NCBI GenBank assembly: GCA_001794435.1
Contig: MGJU01000014.1
Coordinates: 27,494 to 91,493, forward strand
From: Candidatus Yanofskybacteria bacterium RIFCSPHIGHO2_02_FULL_43_17
Lineage (GTDB): Bacteria > Patescibacteriota > Minisyncoccia > 2-02-FULL-40-12 > GWA2-44-9
Length of the DNA: 64,000 nt
Reading direction: 5' to 3'
In this document: one piece after another, positions 18,539 through 54,730 of the stretch
Position numbering within the stretch: position 1 is the first letter of the stretch
How the letters are laid out: each line of letters begins with the position of its first letter
Notes under the pieces: generated by a model
Told to the model about the DNA's origin: nothing
Seen by the model: only the letters and a program-made list of their open reading frames with translations
Database searches by the model: none
Made by a program: the position numbers and the translations under genes

Positions 18539-19246
18539 GTGGCGACAAAAAGAGCAGCCACCGTCGCAACCCTCGGGCCGGCAGTCCGGCTCGTAGTGTT
18601 CAAGTTTTTGATGAGAAGTGAGCTGGTGCCGGACTACATCCCCCGGTTGCCTAGCAACCGTTCCAGCGTTGCGCCGGCATATAACGGTACGCAGGTTTTG
18701 CCGTCCACGCCCGACGTGTGGCTGGCTGACCTGCGAGCCGGATTGCTCAACACCAAGGGCGACTACGCGTTCGTCGGCGCGAGAGTCGCCGATGAGAGAA
18801 CAAATACAAAGAGAAAGGTCAGGAGGGGAGGACTCGTTGAGATTGTCGAAGTCAAGATCAGCGATGTGCGATTCACATTCTGTCGCCGCCGGCATCTGAC
18901 CGACGATCCGCCTCCTCACGAGAACTTTGTGGAGAGGTTCAGTCAACTGGTTAACACCTTCGTTGACTTCACCAAGTCAAACCTCTGGATGACAGAGGCA
19001 TATCTCAATCCGTACCTGAACAAAGACGGCACTACCGGCAAAGGCAGCGTGCTGATGATTGACTGCGCCGGACGGAAATCGGCTGTCAATCCGGATGGTA
19101 CTCCGATCATGGTCTTCGAAGGTGGGCGAGAAAAATCGTCCGCTCCCGGTATGATCGGTCAGGGCATCGGCCCAAAGATTTCGATCCTGAACAAGGCCAG
19201 CGAATTGAAACTCGTCGGCAAGAATGTTCAGTTGATTACCAGATAA
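18539..19246 (+). CDS. hypothetical protein on GC-rich island 1
   Basis: GC ~60% ORF with GTG start after AAAGGA; no recognisable motif; followed by terminator. Confidence 0.5.
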   Translation: MATKRAATVATLGPAVRLVVFKFLMRSELVPDYIPRLPSNRSSVAPAYNGTQVLPSTPDVWLADLRAGLLNTKGDYAFVGARVADERTNTKRKVRRGGLVEIVEVKISDVRFTFCRRRHLTDDPPPHENFVERFSQLVNTFVDFTKSNLWMTEAYLNPYLNKDGTTGKGSVLMIDCAGRKSAVNPDGTPIMVFEGGREKSSAPGMIGQGIGPKISILNKASELKLVGKNVQLITR

Positions 19247-19279
19247 ATATTCGAGCGGATTATGTCCGCCGGCCCCTCA

Positions 19280-19315
19280 CCTTTCAGTAGAAAGGTGAGG
19301 GGCTTTAAAATTTTA
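19280..19315 (+). terminator. intrinsic terminator
   Basis: GCCCCTCACCTTTCAGTAGAAAGGTGAGGGGC followed by TTT. Confidence 0.7.
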
Positions 19316-19356
19316 GGAGGTTGACCCAGCTCTTGGGAAGCTTATATTATGCTCTT

Positions 19357-19626
19357 ATGTATTTTGTGTATGTATTATCTCTAAGCAACGGCCAGATTTA
19401 CATTGGTTTTACCAAAGACCTTAAGAAAAGAATTGAAGAGCATAATAACGGCAAGGTTTTTACTACTAGCAAGTATCTACCAATCAAACTTGTATACTAT
19501 GAATGCTATTTATCTAGAGAAGATGCCAAGATTAGAGAAACCATGATTAAAAAATTTGGTAGCACATACTCCCATCTTAAGAAAAGAATTTATTACTCTA
19601 TTAAAGCTTCCCAAGGGCGGGGTTGA
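19357..19626 (+). CDS. GIY-YIG domain nuclease (stand-alone, ~89 aa)
   Basis: YVLSLSNGQIYIGFTKDLKKRIEEHN GIY-YIG core; low GC unlike flanks. Confidence 0.75.
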   Translation: MYFVYVLSLSNGQIYIGFTKDLKKRIEEHNNGKVFTTSKYLPIKLVYYECYLSREDAKIRETMIKKFGSTYSHLKKRIYYSIKASQGRG

Positions 19627-19753
19627 CCCCGCTCTTGAAGAGAGGTTGCCTGTGGCAGAACCATCCCATTTATACGTTCTACTGATAAACACAGAATGAG
19701 TTGTTCAAAACTATTTTATTAAAAACATCCTCTCTTCAAGAGCGGGGTTGACA
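19611..19753. repeat. inverted-repeat element of the TTCAAGGGCGGGG-TTGAC family (arms 19611-19645 and 19729-19753, ~80-bp AT-rich spacer)
   Basis: arms CCAAGGGCGGGGTTGACCCCGCTCTTGAAGAGAGG / CCTCTCTTCAAGAGCGGGGTTGACA; right arm ends in a -35 hexamer. Confidence 0.7.
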
Positions 19754-19775
19754 AAATTTGTGAGAAGAGTATAAT
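19748..19775 (+). promoter_or_regulatory. sigma70-type promoter (TTGACA-16-TATAAT)
   Basis: perfect consensus hexamers with 16-bp spacer. Confidence 0.7.
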
Positions 19776-19967: not shown

Positions 19968-20774
19968 ATGGCCACGAAGAAGGTTCGGAAGATGAAGAAG
20001 GACGAGATCCCGGTCACAGCCGGAGAACTCTCGGACATCGAGAAGCAAGACCTGGCGGCGACAGCGCCCGCCGACGACAAGGGCGACGGCGAAGCGAGCG
20101 ATCGCCTGCCGTACCACACGTTCGAGCCGGAAGTCTTCCAGCGCTGGACCCGACACGAGAACGGCCTCCACTTGGTCCCGAAGTACCGCTGGGACATGGT
20201 CGCACGGCTGAACGGCGGCCCGCTCTCGGTGGCCAACACCGAGCGGATCGTTCGGGTCGACCCGGCGCTGGGTCGGGCGACGTGCGGATTCCTCGGGCAT
20301 GGGAAGGAGTTCGTCGCCTATATGGTGGCGTTCATCCTGAACAAGCCGGGGCAGGAGGGTCAGCTGATGACTCGTGACAAGTACGTCACAACGGACAACC
20401 CCGAGGGGGTTGTCTACATGGGCTGCGTCGTCCGCGTCAAGGACGAGAACAACCACGTGGTTCCTCTCACGTGCTGCCCCGAGCACGTGGAAGCGGCCCA
20501 GAACGCCGTCGAGCTGGCCTCGGCCCGTCGCGACAAGGACGGAAAGATCGTCGAGCGCGGCTTCCGTCCGCCGGCCCAGTCGATGGGCCAAGCCCTCATC
20601 GACATCCAGGCCATTGTGACCAAGGCCGAACAGCGCCGCGACGAGACCCAGAAGGCCGTCGAGGCCTACGGTGGCAAGCGGCGAGAGTTCGGTGGGAGTC
20701 CCCACATGGCAACCAGCGGCCGCCAGGGCCGCGAGCGCGACCCGCGCGAGCGGAGCATCGGGAACCGCGGCTAA
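19968..20774 (+). CDS. hypothetical protein on GC-rich island 2
   Basis: AAAGGAGG RBS then ATG; GC ~62%; Cys/His cluster CGFLGHG...CCPEH; no known domain recognised. Confidence 0.5.
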   Translation: MATKKVRKMKKDEIPVTAGELSDIEKQDLAATAPADDKGDGEASDRLPYHTFEPEVFQRWTRHENGLHLVPKYRWDMVARLNGGPLSVANTERIVRVDPALGRATCGFLGHGKEFVAYMVAFILNKPGQEGQLMTRDKYVTTDNPEGVVYMGCVVRVKDENNHVVPLTCCPEHVEAAQNAVELASARRDKDGKIVERGFRPPAQSMGQALIDIQAIVTKAEQRRDETQKAVEAYGGKRREFGGSPHMATSGRQGRERDPRERSIGNRG

Positions 20775-22647: not shown

Positions 22648-22778
22648 TTGACCCCGCCCTTGAAGTCAGAATCTAAAGATTTTTTCTTGATCATGTTGCT
22701 ATTTATTAAATAGTCATAATTTGTTTGAAGAAAATAGTATTTGCTGGAAGCAATCTGACTTCAAGGGCGGGGTTGACC
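22648..22778. repeat. inverted-repeat element of the TTCAAGGGCGGGG-TTGAC family (arms 22648-22670 and 22754-22778)
   Basis: TTGACCCCGCCCTTGAAGTCAGA ... TCTGACTTCAAGGGCGGGGTTGACC; right arm gives TTGACC-17-TGTAAT promoter. Confidence 0.7.
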
Positions 22779-28941: not shown

Positions 28942-29066
28942 CCGAGTCATACTCGGCTGCGCCCGAGGATGACGAGAGCCGAGTTGGACTCGGCCCATCG
29001 TCTCTGTTATATAAATATAAAATAATAATTTGAGTTGCGAAGTCTGACTTCGCAACGAATTTAGCT

Positions 29067-29222
29067 ATGAAAAGATATTACGTTTACATACTTTTATCTC
29101 TCAAGGATAACAAGCTATACACTGGATTTACCACAAATCTCAAGAAACGCCTCCAAGAGCATGCAAGAGGCGGAGTTAAATCTACTCAAAACTATATCGT
29201 CCGTTCAAGCCTGACTTTTTGA
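29067..29222 (+). pseudogene. truncated GIY-YIG nuclease gene fragment (51 codons)
   Basis: MKRYYVYILLSLKDNKLYTGFTTNLKKRLQEHARGG matches the N-terminal half of the GIY-YIG fold, then terminates. Confidence 0.55.
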
Positions 29223-29654
29223 AATAATACTCAGGCTCTCTCATGTTTATGACGTCCTATCCTCATAAACATAAGGCAAAGCCAATAATTCTCAATATTC
29301 CGCTACCTATCGGGCGGAATCAGTATGCTTATTATCAGACAGCTTCGATTTGACTTTTGGTTTCTAGGAGAGTATATTTAGGCTATTAACAAGTAAATAT
29401 AATTGCAAACGCATCATTACGAAGGACTAGTAGGTTACATAATCTAAGGCAAAAGCGAGCCTGGGGCGGTGAAAGCCAGGACCTGAAAAGTAACTGAACA
29501 CGTCTTCGGAGCGGTTAGCGAGAATGCCAGAATTGGCACAAGCTAAACGGTAGTCACTCTATCGTGAACTAGATAATTAAGTGCTCGGATTTCCTGAATA
29601 AGGCGTCTGAGAATAAGGATGGAACCACGGGATTCTCTTACTATCTAAGACTCT

Positions 29655-29715
29655 CGTTCCTTTTTTGCTATTCGAAAGAATAGTTATCAAGGAACGGGAG
29701 TCTTTTTGTTTAAAA
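29655..29715 (+). terminator. strong nested hairpin followed by T-tract
   Basis: GACTCTCGTTCCTT...AAGGAACGGGAGTC then TTTTTGTTT. Confidence 0.55.
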
Positions 29716-29795
29716 ACTTCCCGTAGAAGGAGGCAAAGGCCATGAATCACATCGGCTTCAGCCTTGGAGGTGCGGGTCCGCACCTCCTTCGTATG

Positions 29796-29868
29796 GTCCT
29801 GGTAGCTCAATAGAAGAGCGGTGCCCTGTGAAGGCATTGGTTGCGGGTGCAAGTCCCGTCCAGGACCC
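29796..29868 (+). tRNA. tRNA-His-like (anticodon GUG, G-1:C73) with atypical D- and T-loops
   Basis: 7-bp acceptor plus extra 5' G pairing with C73; anticodon loop CUGUGAA; D-loop AAUAGAA lacks GG; T-loop UGCAAGU lacks U55. Confidence 0.5.
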
Positions 29869-29988
29869 ATGAGTTATAAAAATAAGAAATTGCAGAAGAG
29901 TAAATTTAATCAGTTCAAGTATAGATTTGGACTTATTAAACTTGCTCTTATCAAGAGGGCAAGAGCTCTTTTCCAAAAGGAGGGTCGA

Positions 29989-30789
29989 ATGAGACTACAA
30001 CAAGTTGCTAGAATCATGGAGTCTCTAAGACTCCGCAATAAGGGACTTCGTCCAAACAATCAGAAGATTGATGAGTGGGTAGATAACTATATCCAACAAT
30101 GTATTCTGAAAGGTCAAAAGGTAGATATCTTAACTCAATGGTGTTTGTCTAAAGACCTGGAGACTAGATATCAAGTTCAGGGCAATAGATTCGAACCGCT
30201 ACAAGCTGAGATAGATTTACTGCAAAGAGAAATACCCCAAATCTTAAAAGTCTTTACTGACAATGGGGTGGGAGTTAACTGGTGGGTTACATTTAACGGA
30301 GCCTTTCTCGACAGAGGCAGAATTTCCAAAGAACCAACAAAAGAATATGCCGATATGTTAAGAGGTATTAGTACTTCTCCTGAGTTAATTCTGATGGACT
30401 GGGAAGAAGAGATACTCGGAGGCAATAGACCACAGCCGAGTCAAAAAGTTTTGGATGATTTCTTTGGCATAGTTCCAAGAAAGGCCTTCGACTTGGACTT
30501 TTCGAATTTGCTTGAACGGGTAAAGAAATATCCAGAATTTTCTAAAACAGAAGAAGAGTTAAAGAAGGAGTCACAATATAAGATTGCCTGCGAAGCTGAG
30601 GAGGGCAGGTTTCTGTTTAGTCCTGACTCACCATTTCCGTGTGGGCAGTTCATTCTGGTACCTTTGGAATTTCCCGAGAGATATATTTTCTTTGCTGTTT
30701 TGGCTCCTGAGTTCAAGAAGAGGATAGCTTCGATAGTAAAGTCATATCCGTGGAGAATGGATGCAGATAGCCTAAGCTACGAGCTCTAA
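29989..30789 (+). CDS. hypothetical protein
   Basis: AAGGAGG RBS 5 nt before ATG 29989; upstream in-frame extension would overlap the tRNA. Confidence 0.5.
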   Translation: MRLQQVARIMESLRLRNKGLRPNNQKIDEWVDNYIQQCILKGQKVDILTQWCLSKDLETRYQVQGNRFEPLQAEIDLLQREIPQILKVFTDNGVGVNWWVTFNGAFLDRGRISKEPTKEYADMLRGISTSPELILMDWEEEILGGNRPQPSQKVLDDFFGIVPRKAFDLDFSNLLERVKKYPEFSKTEEELKKESQYKIACEAEEGRFLFSPDSPFPCGQFILVPLEFPERYIFFAVLAPEFKKRIASIVKSYPWRMDADSLSYEL

Positions 30790-38284: not shown

Positions 38285-39568
38285 TTATTTTTTGTATCTC
38301 TTTTTGAGGTCTTGAATTATTTTAGGAAGCACTTTGAGAACATAGTCTATGTCCTTTTTTGTTGTTTGTCTGCCCATAGAAAATCTTAGGGCTCCGTTAA
38401 TGTATTTTTTATCCAACCCTATGGCCTTGAGTACATGAGACGGCTCAACGGCATGAGAGGTGCAGGCTGAACCGCTTCCGGCACATATTCCGTATTTATC
38501 GAGTTCCAACAAAAGCACTTCACTCGTCAGGTCTGGAACCGATATGTTCACATTATTCGGCAACCTGTTGATAATCGACTTCGCAAGTCGATTATCAACA
38601 GGTCCGTTAATTTTAACGTCCGGTAACAAGGCGCCCACTTTTTCGATAAGGTCATCCCTCAAGCCAGCAAGCCGTTCGCCTTCTTGTTCTTGCCCTGAGC
38701 TTGTGGATTCGACAGGCTCACCACCCTGAGGCTTTGTCGAATGGGTCGAATGAGTATCTATGTTATCTAAAGCCACAGCCAATCCGCCGATAGCCATCAG
38801 GTTCTCGGTCCCGGCTCTCAGGCCAGCCTCTTGCTCTCCACCTAACATAATAGGAGAAAGCTTAACCCCCCTCCTTGCATACAAAACACCTACTCCTTTC
38901 GGGCCATATATTTTGGAACCGTTAAAAGTAAGCAGGTCAACACCAAGATGGTTGACGTTCATATCCAGATATTCCGTCGCCTGACAAGCGTCGACATGAA
39001 AAATTGGAAATTTTTCATGTCGTATATTTCGAAATTTCGATATGTCGGCATACTCTTCACGAAAATCTCGAATTATTTTCGAGATTTTCGTGATCGGTTC
39101 AATGGTGCCTATTTCGTTATTGGCATACATTACCGACACCAGAACCGTACGGGAGTTTAGCTTGTTTTTTAGATCATTTAAATCCACCAGCCCATTTTGG
39201 TCTACTCTGACGAATTTAATTTCCCATCCTTTTTGCTTTAAAAACTTCAACGGCCTGAGTATTGACGGGTGTTCAATGGGAGTAGAGATTATCTCTCTTC
39301 GACTACGTTTAGAACAAGCATGGGCCAGTCCGAAAATGGCTAAGTTATTAGCTTCTGTACCGGAAGCAGTGAAAATTATCTCGTCCGAATGTGCCCCTAG
39401 AAATCTTGCCACCTTCAATCGAGCCCGTTCTGTATATTCCCGCGCTTCCCTACCACGGTCGTTGTAAGAAGACGGGTTGCCATACAGTTTAGTGACTTTG
39501 ACTATTTCTGCGACGACGTTTTCATCTATCGGAGTAGAGGCGGCGTTGTCTAAATAAACTTTTTTCAT
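38285..39568 (-). CDS. cysteine desulfurase (IscS/NifS-like aminotransferase class V) with low-complexity insertion
   Basis: MKKVYLDNAASTP N-terminus, SGTEANNLAI, PLP-fold pattern; insertion STHSTKPQGGEPVESTSSGQEQEGE. Confidence 0.8.
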   Translation of the reverse strand: MKKVYLDNAASTPIDENVVAEIVKVTKLYGNPSSYNDRGREAREYTERARLKVARFLGAHSDEIIFTASGTEANNLAIFGLAHACSKRSRREIISTPIEHPSILRPLKFLKQKGWEIKFVRVDQNGLVDLNDLKNKLNSRTVLVSVMYANNEIGTIEPITKISKIIRDFREEYADISKFRNIRHEKFPIFHVDACQATEYLDMNVNHLGVDLLTFNGSKIYGPKGVGVLYARRGVKLSPIMLGGEQEAGLRAGTENLMAIGGLAVALDNIDTHSTHSTKPQGGEPVESTSSGQEQEGERLAGLRDDLIEKVGALLPDVKINGPVDNRLAKSIINRLPNNVNISVPDLTSEVLLLELDKYGICAGSGSACTSHAVEPSHVLKAIGLDKKYINGALRFSMGRQTTKKDIDYVLKVLPKIIQDLKKRYKK

Positions 39569-42917: not shown

Positions 42918-42990
42918 ACCCCGCTCTTGAAAAGAGTTAGAAGAGATTAGTTTTGTAAACAAGGGTTTAATAACTTTTCAAGGACGGGGT
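42918..42990. repeat. short member of the TTCAAGGGCGGGG inverted-repeat family
   Basis: ACCCCGCTCTTGAAAAG ... CTTTTCAAGGACGGGGT with ~40-bp spacer, between divergent nusA and pilB. Confidence 0.55.
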
Positions 42991-44867: not shown

Positions 44868-45031
44868 GAACCCTTATAATCTGTAGGCAAAACCCGAGCC
44901 ATAAAAACACGGGGGCAGGATAATTCCGAGGAGTAAGCCAGTCGAAACCAACTTATCCAAACTAAGATAGCATCCCGGTTGGACCTACGTATTAAAATAC
45001 TCAATCCAATTGCCTACAGATTATAATGGTT
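44868..45031. repeat. 164-bp element bounded by 22-bp inverted repeats
   Basis: AACCCTTATAATCTGTAGGCAA ... TTGCCTACAGATTATAATGGTT; internal ORF-free. Confidence 0.55.
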
Positions 45032-45135
45032 CTTTACGCTATATTTTAAGTTAAAAAATAGCGAATGTCAACCCCGCCCTTGAAATAGGGTGGCCCCAGC
45101 AATAATCAAAATTATCGCAATAAATTACAAATTCT

Positions 45136-46284
45136 ATGGAAGCAGATAACAAACACGACAATCATTCTTCAAATACCGCTCTCAAGGACGGGGTCAATCA
45201 CTCAAACTTAACCCCCAAAGCCGCTATGGACGACCAGGTCCTGGACAATGCACTCCGGCCCAAGACATTTGGCGAATATGTCGGGCAGGACAAGATTAAG
45301 GAAAATCTGAGAATAGTCATCGGGGCGGCGAAGAAAAGACGGGAACCCGTGGAACACCTGCTGTTTCATGGCCCTTCCGGGCTTGGAAAGACAACTCTCG
45401 CTTATTTGGTGGCAAAAGAACTGGGAGCTGACATCAGGATAACTTCGGGCACAGCCCTTGAAAAAGCCGGAGATGTCGGTTCAATCCTGACCGGCCTTAA
45501 TGACGGCGATGTTATCTTTATCGACGAGGTGCATCGCCTTAACAAAGCCGTTGAGGAAGTGATATATCCGGCTATGGAGAACTTCAAGCTGGATATAGTC
45601 ATTGGAAAAGGCAATTCCGCAAAGACACTACAAATAGATCTTCCTCGTTTCACTCTTATTGCCGCCACAACTAAAATCTCAATGCTTTCAGCCCCCTTTA
45701 GATCAAGGTTTGGGGTTAATTTCCGGCTCGACTTCTACAACCAAGAGGACATCGAAGAAATCATATCAAGGTCAGCACATCTGCTTGGCGTAGATATCAA
45801 AAAAGAAGCCGTCAAAGAGGTAGCTCTTGCTTCAAGATTCACGCCCAGAGTTGCAAATCGTCTTCTGAAGAGAGTCCGTGACTTCAGCCAAATGAATCCA
45901 GTTAGAGGTAAGACGCCCCTCAAAGAGGGGTCGTCTGCCGACCACGCCATTGCGGCGGGTCGGACCTCTAACGGGATGAATGACACTTATATCACTGCTG
46001 AAACCGCCAAAAGTGCTTTAAAAATGCTTGAGATAGACGACAAAGGACTCGAGGAAACAGACAGAAAAATTCTGTTAGCCATAATCAACAACTTCGATGG
46101 CGGTCCTGCCGGTCTCAAATCTATTGCTGCATCTATTTCAGAAGAAGAAAGTACAATAGAAGATGTTTACGAACCGTACTTGATGCAGATGGGATTTCTC
46201 GCAAGAACTCCGAAAGGAAGGATTGTCACCTCCCGAGGATTTGAGCACTTAGGACTAAAAAACAATAAACCGAAGTTGTTATGA
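45136..46284 (+). CDS. ruvB: Holliday junction branch migration helicase RuvB (N-terminal extension and internal insertion)
   Basis: LRPKTFGEYVGQ, GPSGLGKTTLA Walker A, IFIDEVHRL Walker B. Confidence 0.9.
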   Translation: MEADNKHDNHSSNTALKDGVNHSNLTPKAAMDDQVLDNALRPKTFGEYVGQDKIKENLRIVIGAAKKRREPVEHLLFHGPSGLGKTTLAYLVAKELGADIRITSGTALEKAGDVGSILTGLNDGDVIFIDEVHRLNKAVEEVIYPAMENFKLDIVIGKGNSAKTLQIDLPRFTLIAATTKISMLSAPFRSRFGVNFRLDFYNQEDIEEIISRSAHLLGVDIKKEAVKEVALASRFTPRVANRLLKRVRDFSQMNPVRGKTPLKEGSSADHAIAAGRTSNGMNDTYITAETAKSALKMLEIDDKGLEETDRKILLAIINNFDGGPAGLKSIAASISEEESTIEDVYEPYLMQMGFLARTPKGRIVTSRGFEHLGLKNNKPKLL

Positions 46285-54187: not shown

Positions 54188-54331
54188 ACTAGGTAATTAA
54201 TTTTGCAGTTAGCAGTTAATTTAGTACGCGATTCGATCGCTGTCGGGTCGTAGCTGGGAAATCTGCTGTTCGACATAAAAAGAATTATAGCTGATTAAAA
54301 TTTTAAAACGAATACTGTTTTTAGTTGATAT

Positions 54332-54340
54332 ACTGTGTAT
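54332..54340 (-). promoter_or_regulatory. consensus DnaA box TTATACACA
   Basis: TGTGTATAA on the plus strand, ~145 bp upstream of dnaA. Confidence 0.5.
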
Positions 54341-54365
54341 AACAAGTGGAAAAATAAAGACAATA

Positions 54366-54493
54366 TTGACCCCGCCCTTGAAAAGCAGTGTAATAGTTAA
54401 CCAGCCATCAAAAAATACTTTTAGGAATATTTTATTTAGTTTGAAATAAAATTTCTACAAATCCTGGGCTGCTTTTCAAGGGCGGGGTTGACC
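54366..54493. repeat. inverted-repeat element of the TTCAAGGGCGGGG-TTGAC family between divergent dnaA and rpmH
   Basis: TTGACCCCGCCCTTGAAAAGCAG ... CTGCTTTTCAAGGGCGGGGTTGACC; left arm TTGACC-17-TGTAAT, right arm TTGACC-17-TAAATT. Confidence 0.7.
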
Positions 54494-54525
54494 AGGATGC
54501 TAAATTTTTGTAAATTATATACTAT

Positions 54526-54672
54526 ATGACATTATCAAAAGCACTAACATATCGGCCAAAAAAGAAAAAAAGAAAGAGAAAACACGGCTTTCTGGCAAGG
54601 TCAAGCTCAAGATTTGGTAAAAGAGTTTTAACAAAAAGAAGGAGAAAAGGCAGAAAACGGCTAACGGTGTAG
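54526..54672 (+). CDS. rpmH: 50S ribosomal protein L34
   Basis: 48 aa [25 protein letters not shown]...[11 protein letters not shown]; below ORF-track cutoff. Confidence 0.9.
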
Positions 54673-54673
54673 T

Positions 54674-54730
54674 TAGCGACTAGCGACTAGCCAATAGCGA
54701 CCCCGCCTTGGCGGGGTGGCTAGGGGCTAT
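54674..54730. repeat. GC-rich post-stop hairpin (family member)
   Basis: GCGACTAGCGACTAGCCAATAGCGACCCCGCCTTGGCGGGGTGGCTAGGGGC. Confidence 0.6.

What the first reader, a model, noticed from the sequence alone, without database searches (positions are those of the whole stretch)
19357..19626. Stand-alone GIY-YIG nuclease genes at island/tRNA junctions (second, truncated copy at 29067-29222)
An 89-aa GIY-YIG protein sits between the two GC islands. Its last codons (QGRG-stop) are encoded by the left arm of an inverted-repeat element. A 51-codon GIY-YIG N-terminal fragment lies just after the Leu/Val/Phe/Gly tRNA cluster. Small free-standing GIY-YIG ORFs next to tRNAs and foreign DNA resemble homing-endonuclease cassettes.
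Basis: partly seen in the sequence, partly recalled or inferred. Interest (0 to 1): 0.5.

Follow-up and report, generated by a model that had tools for sequence, protein, structure and literature searches.

The report
Nuclease gene inside mobile hairpin repeat
The small GIY-YIG nuclease gene is the only protein-coding member of a family of hairpin-ended mobile DNA repeats in ultra-small groundwater bacteria, which insert by duplicating four bases, usually the start of a promoter's -35 box.

Summary
Both GIY-YIG ORFs are real. The 89-aa gene (19357-19626) is intact. The 51-codon one (29067-29222) is a frameshifted, truncated remnant of a different subfamily.

The "homing-endonuclease cassette" reading is only partly right. 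The 89-aa gene sits inside a 298-bp element (E1, 19325-19622). E1 is bounded by 18-19-bp inverted repeats (CCCCGCYCTTGA plus 7 locus-specific complementary bases) and by a 4-bp direct repeat (TTGA). Five gene-less elements with the same ends lie in the window (E2-E6). At least 118 more stretches were found in groundwater metagenomes.

- The same arms flank all 13 distinct homologous loci held from GTDB genomes and the window (>=58% identity; 16 with three further contigs), in non-syntenic places.
- 65 of 102 mini elements carry perfect 4-bp flanking duplications; 12.4 are expected by chance.
- Relatives show precise empty sites for E6 and E4.
- Mini element E3 recurs at 94% identity in an unrelated locus.
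- No other gene type occurs between such arms in 1.1 Mb.
- 31 of 41 TTGA-type mini elements abut a TTGACA-N16-18-TATAAT promoter.

The closest known system is the Ssn nuclease with its SRM/NTS hairpin repeats (2025), which resembles RAYT/REPIN. I rate this a new variant of that kind. That the nuclease itself moves the elements is inferred, not shown.

The parts
19321..19324 (+). Left copy of the 4-bp target duplication TTGA of E1. With the element's first C it reads TTGACC, a -35-like hexamer.
19325..19622 (+). E1, the gene-bearing hairpin-ended element (298 bp). Left arm is 19325-19343, CCCAGCTCTTGGGAAGCTT. Right arm is 19604-19622, AAGCTTCCCAAGGGCGGGG.
   Evidence: Inverted repeat I3. The same arms flank homologs in every one of the 13 distinct loci with >=58% identity (window plus GTDB genomes), and in 3 further contigs.
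19343..19348 (+). TATATT, a -10-like hexamer 16 nt after TTGACC. It would give a leaderless or near-leaderless mRNA for the nuclease gene (inferred).
   Evidence: 10 of 12 promoter match.
19357..19626 (+). 89-aa single-domain GIY-YIG nuclease gene of the Ssn-like type. The last four codons lie in the right arm. The stop codon TGA comes from the duplicated TTGA.
   Evidence: Pfam E 1.6e-13. Invariant Y15, G17, R25, H29 and near-invariant E49, R60, E61. 38% identity to an SRM-flanked Azospirillum GIY-YIG.
19623..19626 (+). TTGA shared by E1 (as its right duplication) and E2 (as its left duplication).
19627..19747 (.). E2, a gene-less mini element (121 bp) in tandem with E1.
   Evidence: I2 arms are 96% complementary. 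The ssDNA fold is -29 kcal/mol, z -7.6.
19748..19775 (+). TTGACA-N16-TATAAT promoter of the downstream 268-aa gene. Its TTGA is the right duplication of E2.
   Evidence: 12 of 12 match.
22652..22772 (.). E3, a mini element (121 bp) with TTGA on both sides. It lies between a terminator hairpin and the promoter of the next gene.
   Evidence: It is 93.8% identical over exactly 130 bp to copies in unrelated contigs L089/L110/L129. The orthologous site in L038 holds a gene-bearing element.
42919..42989 (.). E4, a short mini element (71 bp) with duplication TTTA, between nusA and pilB.
   Evidence: The site is empty in relatives L165 and L170. The element is partly deleted in L166.
45072..45193 (.). 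E6, a mini element (122 bp) with duplication TCAA. It is inserted into what is the 5' end of ruvB in relatives.
   Evidence: Removing the element plus one TCAA gives a gapless alignment across the junction with L166 and L165.
54370..54487 (.). E5, a mini element (118 bp) with duplication TTGA, in the dnaA upstream region next to a TTGACC-N17-TAAATT promoter-like site.
   Evidence: The orthologous site in L165 holds a hairpin element with different arms but the same TTGA flanks.
29067..29222 (+). Decayed N-terminal fragment of a different small GIY-YIG subfamily. It is frameshifted near 29195 and truncated, has no arm motif, and is preceded by an unrelated 11-bp-stem palindrome at 29034-29056.
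   Evidence: It is absent from the closest relative.

Best explanation
The 89-aa ORF encodes a single-domain GIY-YIG nuclease of the Ssn type. It is carried inside the only protein-coding member (E1) of a family of hairpin-ended mobile elements in Yanofskybacteria, Azambacteria and other Parcubacteria (CPR).

SHOWN:
- Every element ends in C-CCCGCYCTTGA ... TCAAGRGCGG-G, followed inward by 7 locus-specific but mutually complementary bases. This gives a 19-bp stem on single-stranded DNA.
- Insertion duplicates 4 bp, most often TTGA or its complement TCAA.
- There are two size classes: about 119-bp gene-less mini elements and about 296-bp elements that carry only the GIY-YIG gene.
- TTGA-type mini elements abut functional-looking promoters, so the right-hand TTGA is the start of a TTGACA -35 box.

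INFERRED:
- The nuclease recognises the stem formed by the two ends on single-stranded DNA and cuts at its foot, next to the GTCAA/TTGAC flank. Ssn enzymes do this at CGTC-tagged hairpins.
- The nuclease thereby mobilises its own element and, in trans, the mini elements.
- Rejoining would need a host ligase or repair function, because GIY-YIG enzymes form no covalent intermediate.
- In E1 the left-hand TTGA plus the element's C gives TTGACC. The arm fills the 16-17-nt spacer, and an internal TATATT gives a hybrid promoter and a leaderless mRNA.
- The right-hand TTGA supplies the stop codon and keeps the downstream gene's promoter intact.
For: - Arms flank the gene in the window and in L004/L015, L012/L022, L016-L021, L023, L024, L032, L038 and L071, in unrelated gene contexts.
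- L019 shows a compensated change inside the conserved part of the arms, CCGTTG with CAACGG.
- The window holds 5 further mini elements. The motif is enriched, 13 against 2.0 expected.
- 65 of 102 mini elements have a perfect 4-nt direct repeat; permuted partners give 12.4 +/- 3.0, maximum 22.
- The stem extension beyond the conserved 11 nt is exactly 7 nt in 63 of 109 mini elements, with 77 distinct inner 7-mers.
- Precise empty sites exist for E6 (L165, L166) and E4 (L165, L170).
- E3 is 93.8% identical over exactly 130 bp to copies in contigs that share no other similarity. Two copies with different duplications lie in one contig, L075.
- The site orthologous to E3 holds a gene-bearing element in L038.
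- Of 164 arm pairs in 1.11 Mb, 123 span 100-139 bp and 33 span 280-310 bp, all of the latter GIY-YIG. No other gene type lies between arms.
- 31 of 41 oriented TTGA mini elements have a -10 box 16-18 nt after the right-hand TTGAC(A), against 13% of 844 control TTGAC sites.
- Link to Ssn: the protein is a single domain of 89 aa. It is 38% identical (pairwise E 4e-14) to an Azospirillum GIY-YIG, and hhalign gives 97.6% probability to a Shinella one. Both of those genes are flanked on both sides by exact matches to the published SRM motif.
- Ssn biochemistry and its IS-like NTS-ssnA-NTS layout are described in PMC11893778.
Against: - No experiment and no direct computational test links this protein to cutting or moving the elements. 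Association is the only evidence.
- GIY-YIG nucleases hydrolyse DNA and cannot rejoin it. A 4-bp duplication is what DDE transposases typically leave, so an unseen transposase could be the mobiliser.
- The published SRM pattern finds nothing in the window or the CPR loci.
- Each flank here is a half-palindrome rather than a complete local hairpin. The flanking tags are direct repeats, not inverted ones.
- Mini-element interiors show no similarity to the gene, so they are not recognisable deletion derivatives.
- The gene is stably syntenic within Azambacteria. The window's E1 left arm carries 2 mismatches, so this copy may no longer move.
- Assignment to CDD cd10448 could not be checked.
Confidence: 0.62

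Rival explanations
1. The mini elements are MITEs mobilised by some other transposase, for example a DDE enzyme that makes 4-bp duplications, encoded elsewhere in these genomes. The GIY-YIG gene would then be a passenger captured by one element. Alternatively it is a host-domesticated nuclease that merely uses the repeats as recognition sites, for example to restrict incoming single-stranded DNA as Neisseria SsnA does.
For: A 4-bp duplication with terminal inverted repeats is classic DDE behaviour (general knowledge). GIY-YIG enzymes lack a strand-transfer activity. The gene is single-copy and syntenic within Azambacteria. Neisseria SsnA modulates transformation rather than transposing (PMC11893778).
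Against: In 1.11 Mb carrying 164 arm pairs, no other gene type lies between arms. The ORF is interlocked with the element: its tail is encoded by the arm, its stop codon by the duplication, and its -35 by the junction. This holds across lineages with 58-91% protein identity. Homologs of this protein type are known to bind and cut their own flanking hairpins.
Confidence: 0.25
2. It is a free-standing GIY-YIG homing endonuclease cassette. The nuclease would cut an empty allele, and the gene would be copied in by double-strand-break repair.
For: The protein has the GIY-YIG fold. There are weak hits to group I intron and homing endonuclease models: TIGR01453 at E 2e-4, below its cut-off, and phrog_5123 at E 4e-3. 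Placement among relatives is non-syntenic.
Against: The protein has no DNA-binding domain and is only 89 aa. The element has terminal inverted repeats, a 4-bp target duplication and abundant gene-less copies. Homing leaves no duplication and needs long homologous flanks.
Confidence: 0.04
3. The hairpins are ordinary host regulatory modules, such as terminator or insulator hairpins upstream of promoters, and the GIY-YIG gene is a housekeeping gene that happens to carry them.
For: 76% of TTGA-type mini elements abut a promoter. E1 and E3 follow upstream terminators.
Against: Close relatives have precise empty sites. The same 130-bp element occurs in unrelated loci. E6 is inserted inside the 5' end of ruvB. 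Content varies between genomes with 87-92% identical core proteins.
Confidence: 0.04

Closest known systems
Ssn nucleases with NTS/SRM hairpin repeats (Chenal et al., Nat Commun 2025, PMC11893778; CDD cd10448; CGTC-tagged REPs of Di Nocera et al. 2013, PMC3733652)
   Same: Both have a single-domain GIY-YIG protein of about 90 aa. In both, the gene is bracketed by inverted, hairpin-forming G+C-rich repeats containing CCCGC/GCGGG, with a GTCA-type tag beside the stem. In both, the same repeats are dispersed through the genome, and the gene-plus-repeats layout looks IS-like. The window protein is 38% identical to an SRM-flanked Azospirillum homolog.
   Different: The published SRM pattern does not match here. 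Here the gene lies inside one long-range hairpin, with half a palindrome on each side, rather than between complete local hairpins. The flanking tags are 4-bp direct repeats that behave as target duplications; empty sites are shown, which the paper does not report. The mini elements have a fixed length of about 119 bp with an 11+7-bp stem, and they sit on promoter -35 boxes. The host is CPR/Patescibacteria, which the paper's main text does not mention.
RAYT/REPIN systems (REP-associated tyrosine transposases, IS200/IS605-like)
   Same: Both have a single-copy nuclease gene flanked by inverted copies of a repeat that is dispersed as gene-less doublets of about 100 bp. Both are mostly inherited vertically, with occasional turnover.
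   Different: The enzyme here is a GIY-YIG hydrolase, not an HUH/Y1 transposase. REPINs and IS200/IS605 leave no target duplication, whereas these elements duplicate 4 bp.
IS/MITE pairs (for example Correia elements, IS5- or IS630-type MITEs)
   Same: Both show terminal inverted repeats, short target duplications, an autonomous and a non-autonomous size class, and preferred target sequences.
   Different: The only coding partner is an 89-aa nuclease with no transposase fold. The inner 7 bp of the arms differ between copies yet stay complementary. Mini-element interiors are unrelated to the coding element.
UPF0213 / COG2827 proteins (E. coli YhbQ type; PDB 1zg2 BH0048, 1ywl EF2693)
   Same: These are the closest solved structures by sequence, at E 3e-7 and 5e-6. 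They are small stand-alone GIY-YIG domains.
   Different: To my knowledge no repeat association is described for those proteins. Similarity is limited to the catalytic core.

Membership tests
GIY-YIG nuclease superfamily (Pfam PF01541) | Sequence match above the curated threshold, including both Tyr motifs, Arg, His/Lys and the metal-binding Glu | tested here: met
   The 89-aa ORF scores 51.2 bits against a cut-off of 22.6. Y15, G17, R25 and H29 are invariant, and E49, R60 and E61 are near-invariant. The 29067 fragment scores 38.8 bits but lacks the Glu half.
Ssn family (PMC11893778) | Single-domain protein of about 90-100 aa with no extra DNA-binding domain | tested here: met
   The protein is 89 aa, and Pfam covers residues 1-66 with nothing else detected.
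Ssn family (PMC11893778) | Assignment to CDD cd10448 (GIY-YIG_unchar_3), or a BLASTP hit to N. meningitidis SsnA (CAX49033.1) at E<1e-10 with 75% coverage | not testable with these tools
   Neither CDD nor the SsnA sequence was available. As a proxy, the protein is 38% identical over 72 aa to an Azospirillum GIY-YIG flanked by near-canonical NTS, and hhalign gives 97.6% probability to the Shinella one.
Ssn family (PMC11893778) | At least one SRM (HGTCWYN(0-2)YYVSBRHN(0-5)WNVSBRGN(0-2)RNCYNB) within 500 bp on both sides of the gene | tested here: not met
   The pattern has 0 matches in the window, L004 and L012. It has 4 matches each around the Azospirillum and Shinella genes. The CPR arms are related in style (GTCAAC-CCCGCC against CGTCAT-TCCCGCG) but fall outside the published pattern.
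Ssn family (PMC11893778) | Flanking hairpin-forming inverted repeats that are also dispersed in many copies in the genome | tested here: met
   Arms lie on both sides of the gene. There are 5 further elements in 64 kb. The stems fold with z -7.6 to -10.
Ssn family (PMC11893778) | Site-specific cleavage of single-stranded DNA next to the hairpin, with no activity on duplex DNA or RNA | not testable with these tools
   This needs purified protein.
Free-standing GIY-YIG homing endonucleases (Seg / I-TevI type) | Nuclease domain joined to a DNA-binding domain, with insertion that leaves no terminal repeats and no target duplication | tested here: not met
   There is no second domain. Inverted repeats and a 4-bp duplication are present. 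TIGR01453 scores 21 bits against a cut-off of 56.
MITE / insertion-sequence type transposable element | Terminal inverted repeats, target-site duplication, presence/absence polymorphism, and the same element at unrelated loci | tested here: met
MITE / insertion-sequence type transposable element | The autonomous partner encodes a recognised transposase (DDE, HUH, serine or tyrosine) | tested here: not met
   The only gene found between arms is the GIY-YIG nuclease.
RAYT/REPIN | HUH/Y1 transposase and no target duplication | tested here: not met
   The protein has a GIY-YIG fold, and a 4-bp duplication is present.

The most novel reading that the evidence does not exclude
These are a new class of prokaryotic transposable element whose sole enzyme is an 89-aa GIY-YIG hydrolase. 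The nuclease would cut at the foot of the hairpin formed by the element's ends and at TTGA(CA) targets. Host ligation or repair would then complete a move that duplicates 4 bp. Because the preferred target is the -35 hexamer and its duplication restores it, the element would spread through promoters without silencing them, and would borrow the duplicated -35 for its own expression. If so, the same mechanism would explain how CGTC-tagged REPs, Neisseria NTS/dRS3 and Rickettsia-type palindromic elements multiply.
Probability: 0.3. Interest if true: 0.85.

Novelty: new variant of a known kind. Interest (0 to 1): 0.62.

Why it matters
How Ssn-associated hairpin repeats (CGTC-tagged REPs, Neisseria NTS) multiply is an open question. 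The 2025 Ssn paper only speculated that the gene-plus-repeats unit is IS-like.

This CPR variant gives clean signs of movement that make the question testable:
- defined ends
- a 4-bp target duplication
- empty sites in close relatives
- identical mini elements at unrelated loci
- a single candidate enzyme of 89 aa

It also shows a mobile element that lands on the -35 box of promoters and regenerates it. That matters for promoter evolution and for gene annotation in streamlined CPR genomes. For example, ruvB is mis-annotated here as starting inside E6. If the nuclease cuts single-stranded DNA at an 11+7-bp stem whose inner 7 bp vary freely, it may be a partly programmable ssDNA nuclease.

Tried and rejected
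- Rfam on the whole window and on both loci found no intron or known RNA at either GIY-YIG. It found only tRNAs and a sub-threshold T-box.
- NCBIfam gave only sub-threshold group I intron endonuclease hits. PHROGs gave weak endonuclease hits.
- I tested whether mini elements are internal-deletion derivatives of the gene-bearing element. Their interiors show no significant similarity to the gene or, within the window, to each other.
- I looked for a second dispersed repeat tied to the 29067 fragment. The palindrome at 29034-29056 is unique in the window. More distant GIY-YIG subfamilies (P0019, P0023) show no flanking arms.
- The arm motif CCCCTCACCTTT, from a relative's element at the E5 site, occurs only once in the window, as the hairpin at 19272-19303.
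- An exact-sequence look-up of the 51-aa fragment found nothing on record.
- The first attempt to scan genomes with the broad alignment A1 failed for lack of conserved columns.
- MAFFT misplaced the large gap at E6. I replaced it with an explicit reconstructed-empty-site alignment.
- The two GC-rich flanking ORFs have no family match, so the 'island' idea could not be evaluated further.

Full report
**Source.** The window matches a contig of a groundwater metagenome-assembled genome, Candidatus Yanofskybacteria bacterium RIFCSPHIGHO2_01_FULL_43 (GCA_001794145.1). This follows from exact protein look-ups and from the source names of its RuvB and L19 proteins.

**Observation.**
- ORF 19357-19626 encodes 89 aa and matches Pfam GIY-YIG at E 1.6e-13.
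- ORF 29067-29222 encodes 51 aa and matches only the N-terminal half of the domain (E 1.1e-9).
- After ...KSTQNY the family sequence continues in the +2 frame (YRPFK...) and then stops. No C-terminal half exists in any frame.
- tblastn finds only these two copies in the window.
- The fragment follows the tRNA-Leu/Val/Phe/Gly cluster.
One correction applies: the QGRG-stop codons lie in the right arm of the gene's own inverted repeat (partner at 19325-19343). The neighbouring inverted-repeat element starts one base after the stop codon.

**Anatomy around the intact gene.** Reading together gives this layout:
- terminator-like hairpin at 19272-19303
- TTGA (19321-19324)
- E1 (19325-19622)
- TTGA (19623-19626)
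- E2 (19627-19747)
- TTGA (19748-19751), followed by CA

E1 starts CCCAGCTCTTGGGAAGCTT and ends AAGCTTCCCAAGGGCGGGG. E2 starts CCCCGCTCTTGAAGAGAGG and ends CCTCTCTTCAAGAGCGGGG.

The left TTGA plus the first C of E1 reads TTGACC. Sixteen bases on lies TATATT (a 10-of-12 promoter match), which ends 8 nt before the ATG. This predicts a leaderless or nearly leaderless mRNA. The last TTGA starts a perfect TTGACA-N16-TATAAT promoter (12 of 12) for the downstream 268-aa gene. The gene's stop codon TGA lies in the middle TTGA.

**The arms travel with the gene.** Homologs at 58-91% identity were found in Azambacteria, Yanofskybacteria, other Parcubacteria and MAGs labelled Saccharibacteria.
- Their gene neighbourhoods are unrelated. 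The window copy lies between two unknown ORFs. The Azambacteria copy lies between sodA and fmt. The L012 copy lies between a 615-aa and a 204-aa unknown ORF. Others differ again.
- Every one of the 13 distinct loci with >=58% identity (window plus GTDB genomes) has the same arms at the same distance. Three further contigs (L032, L038, L071) also have them.
- The outer 11-12 nt are conserved (CCCCGCYCTTGA / TCAAGRGCGGGG). The next 7 nt differ between loci but stay complementary within a locus.
- L019 even carries a compensated change in the conserved part, CCGTTG with CAACGG.
- The conserved C-terminal SQGRG of the proteins is the translation of the right arm.
- Within Azambacteria the locus is syntenic across two protein clusters, so the element is not hyper-mobile.

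**Gene-less copies.** The window contains five more elements with the same ends:

| Element | Coordinates | Flanking 4-mer |
|---|---|---|
| E2 | 19627-19747 | TTGA |
| E3 | 22652-22772 | TTGA |
| E4 | 42919-42989 | TTTA |
| E6 | 45072-45193 | TCAA |
| E5 | 54370-54487 | TTGA |

- The arm motif is enriched, with 13 hits against 2.0 +/- 1.4 in shuffles.
- As single-stranded DNA, E2, E3 and E5 fold into 19-22-bp terminal stems (z -7.6 to -10). E4 and E6 are weaker.
- Among 109 distinct mini elements, the perfect stem extends exactly 7 nt beyond the conserved 11 in 63 cases. There are 77 different inner 7-mers. Arms taken from different elements almost never match that far.
- Lengths cluster at 117-121 bp.
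- In all 1.11 Mb held, 164 arm pairs fall into two main size classes: 123 at 100-139 bp and 33 at 280-310 bp. Seven are shorter, and one 1,971-bp pair in L075 is probably a mis-pairing of arms from separate elements.
- Twelve of the 13 distinct 280-310-bp elements printed show the GIY-YIG ORF as their longest. In L024 a reverse-strand ORF was longer, but tblastn finds the GIY-YIG there. No other gene type lies between arms.
- In the 808 kb of contigs selected for carrying mini elements, only one arm-flanked GIY-YIG gene occurs. This resembles the one-gene-many-repeats ratio of RAYT/REPIN systems.

**Evidence that the elements are insertions.**
1. 65 of 102 mini elements have a perfect 4-nt direct repeat immediately outside the terminal C...G. 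Permuting the partners gives 12.4 +/- 3.0, with a maximum of 22. The repeats are TTGA (22), TCAA (20), TTTA (8), TGAA (4), TAAA (3), TTAA (3) and a few others.
2. Empty sites. Relatives L165 (GCA_016185505.1) and L166 have 87% identical RuvB and keep the order nusA-pilB-ruvB...dnaA. Removing E6 plus one TCAA from the window gives a sequence that aligns without gaps across the junction with L166 (107 bp) and L165. In those genomes the site is codons 3-4 of ruvB (MDVNHS...). The window's ruvB must start at a downstream ATG (45226). The public annotation instead starts it inside E6 (382 aa, P0028).
3. E4 is absent from L165 and from the closest relative L170 (L19 92% identical), again with gapless junction alignments. 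In L166 its right part is deleted.
4. The same element occurs at unrelated places. E3 is 93.8% identical over exactly 130 bp, from TTGAC to GTTGAC, to copies in L089/L110/L129. The only other match between those contigs and the window is 84 bp inside ruvB. L075 holds two related copies with different duplications.
5. Site turnover. In L038 the nuclease is 91% identical to the window's, and the gene-bearing element occupies the site orthologous to E3. The window's gene-bearing copy lies 3.3 kb away.
6. At the E5 site, L165 carries a hairpin element with other arms (CCCCTCACCTTTTAGTCAG) but the same TTGA flanks.

**Target.** I oriented the 41 TTGA/TCAA mini elements so that the duplication reads TTGA.
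- The base after the right-hand copy is C in 33 and the next is A in 26, which reads TTGACA.
- 31 of 41 have a TATAAT-like box 16-18 nt further on, against 13% of 844 control TTGAC sites in the same contigs.
- Reading inward from the left copy, a -10 box is found less often (13 of 60), though more often than in the control orientation (5 of 60).
- Gene-bearing elements are almost always oriented so that TTGA, not TCAA, precedes the gene. That orientation supplies both a -35 and a stop codon.
- Whether this reflects enzyme specificity for TTGA(CA) or survival of only promoter-neutral insertions cannot be decided here. E6, inside ruvB, shows that promoters are not obligatory targets.

**What is known.** The literature search found Chenal et al. 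2025 (PMC11893778).
- Ssn proteins are about 94-aa single-domain GIY-YIG nucleases (CDD cd10448).
- They bind hairpin repeats (NTS/SRM, CGTC-tagged) on single-stranded DNA and cut just upstream.
- Their genes are typically flanked by these repeats, which occur in hundreds of copies.
- The authors note the IS-like layout and the analogy to RAYT/REP, but report no mobility evidence. The paper's main text mentions neither CPR nor target sites.

I tested the link as follows.
- tblastn of the window protein against plasmids found GIY-YIG genes wedged between sufB and sufC (Azospirillum) and elsewhere (Shinella, Sphingomonas).
- The Azospirillum and Shinella genes are flanked on both sides by exact matches to the published SRM pattern. 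The Azospirillum repeat, CGTCATCCCCGCGAAGGCGGGGATCCAG, is almost the Neisseria NTS.
- The window protein is 38% identical to the Azospirillum protein (pairwise E 4e-14). The family profile matches the Shinella protein with 97.6% probability.
- The SRM pattern itself finds nothing in the window or the CPR loci.
- The nearest solved structures are UPF0213 proteins.
- The E1-type clade is narrow: 2 clusters at E<=1e-30, inside a very large family of 13,499 representatives at E<=1e-3.
- Membership in cd10448 could not be tested.

**Mechanism.** The following points are shown:
- hairpin-ended elements
- a 4-bp duplication
- two size classes
- the GIY-YIG gene as the only coding content
- the promoter association

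The following points are inferred:
- The nuclease recognises the 19-bp stem on single-stranded DNA. This would explain why the inner 7 bp need only be complementary.
- It cuts at the stem foot next to the GTCAA/TTGAC tag, as Ssn enzymes do.
- This drives movement of E1-type elements and, in trans, of mini elements, with host functions doing the joining.

The main rival is that another transposase moves the mini elements and the nuclease is a passenger or a domesticated host enzyme. A homing-endonuclease cassette and a purely regulatory hairpin each get about 0.04.

**The fragment at 29067.**
- It belongs to another subfamily; its best match is 57% identity to P0023-type proteins.
- It has no arm motif, and it is preceded by a unique palindrome.
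- It has no counterpart in the closest relative, where the tRNA-Gly flank carries serine-recombinase islands instead.
- It is a decaying remnant in a variable tRNA-flanking region.

**Verdict.** The finding as written, two small GIY-YIG ORFs, is ordinary. What lies behind the intact one is not. It is a CPR variant of the Ssn/hairpin-repeat system with unusually clear signs of transposition and a promoter-box target. I rate it a new variant of a known kind, with interest 0.62.

Noticed in passing
window 29405-29868 and 29869-30789: There is a T-box leader here (RF00230, 74.7 bits, below the gathering score of 93, E 2e-16). Its specifier position after the conserved GAA reads CAC (His). It is followed by a terminator-like hairpin, then tRNA-His(GTG). 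At the very next base starts a 306-aa ORF with no Pfam or PHROG match. A His T-box in front of a tRNA gene and an unknown protein is unusual.
   Followed up: partly
window 44868-45030 (also L165 9735-9895, L166 9820-9970): A noncoding block of about 160 nt lies between pilB and ruvB. It is closed by the inverted repeat TTATAATCTGTAGGCAA...TTGCCTACAGATTATAA and is highly conserved in three genomes whose flanks diverge. It has no Rfam match and may be a small RNA.
   Followed up: partly
window 45136-46284: The public annotation of ruvB (382 aa, 'hypothetical protein') starts at an ATG inside mini element E6 and reads through its right arm. Relatives start ruvB at MDVNHS..., exactly where E6 is inserted. 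The real start here is probably 45226.
   Followed up: yes
window 54188-54730: Mini element E5 sits in the dnaA upstream region, on the probable replication-origin side, next to rpmH-rnpA-yidC. In relative L165 the same spot holds a hairpin element with different arms (CCCCTCACCTTTTAGTCAG) and the same TTGA flanks.
   Followed up: partly
window 19272-19303: The terminator-like hairpin GCCCCTCACCTTTC-AGTA-GAAAGGTGAGGGGC just left of E1 uses the same arm motif as the L165 element at the E5 site. It may be a micro-element of a second hairpin family. It occurs only once in the window.
   Followed up: partly
window 18539-19246 and 19968-20774: Two ORFs flank E1/E2, with 51% and 64% GC in a genome of about 44% GC. 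Neither has a Pfam family, and the only PHROG hit is negligible. Their origin is unknown.
   Followed up: partly
window 38561-38602: This is an 18-bp-stem palindrome, CCTGTTGATAATCGACTT-CGCA-AAGTCGATTATCAACAGG, about 320 bp from the tRNA-Lys/Arg pair. It is unrelated to the arm motif.
   Followed up: no
L004 6260-6880; L032 1520-1940: In Azambacteria the promoter at the right end of the GIY-YIG element (TTGACA-N16-TATACT) reads into a GC-rich stretch of 400-600 nt. The stretch has no ORF call and no Rfam match, and its length varies between strains. It may be an uncharacterised RNA gene.
   Followed up: partly
L012 5749-5788 (= L022 2710-2749): A 26-nt micro-hairpin, CCCCGCCCTTG-CCGG-CAAGAGCGGGG, is flanked by TGGA/TGGA and lies 260 bp upstream of that genome's gene-bearing element. 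It is either a minimal element or a footprint.
   Followed up: partly
L159 1379-1890 (Azospirillum lipoferum plasmid AZO_p3); L157 (Sphingomonas paeninsulae): Ssn-type GIY-YIG genes are wedged inside conserved operons: sufB-[gene]-sufC and rnc-[gene]-era. The Azospirillum copy has a REPIN-like SRM doublet on each side.
   Followed up: partly
L168-L170 6219-7727 and 12470-14086: The closest relative carries large serine recombinase genes next to rluA/rplS and tRNA-Gly. This marks the tRNA-flanking region that holds the GIY-YIG fragment in the window as an integration hot spot.
   Followed up: no
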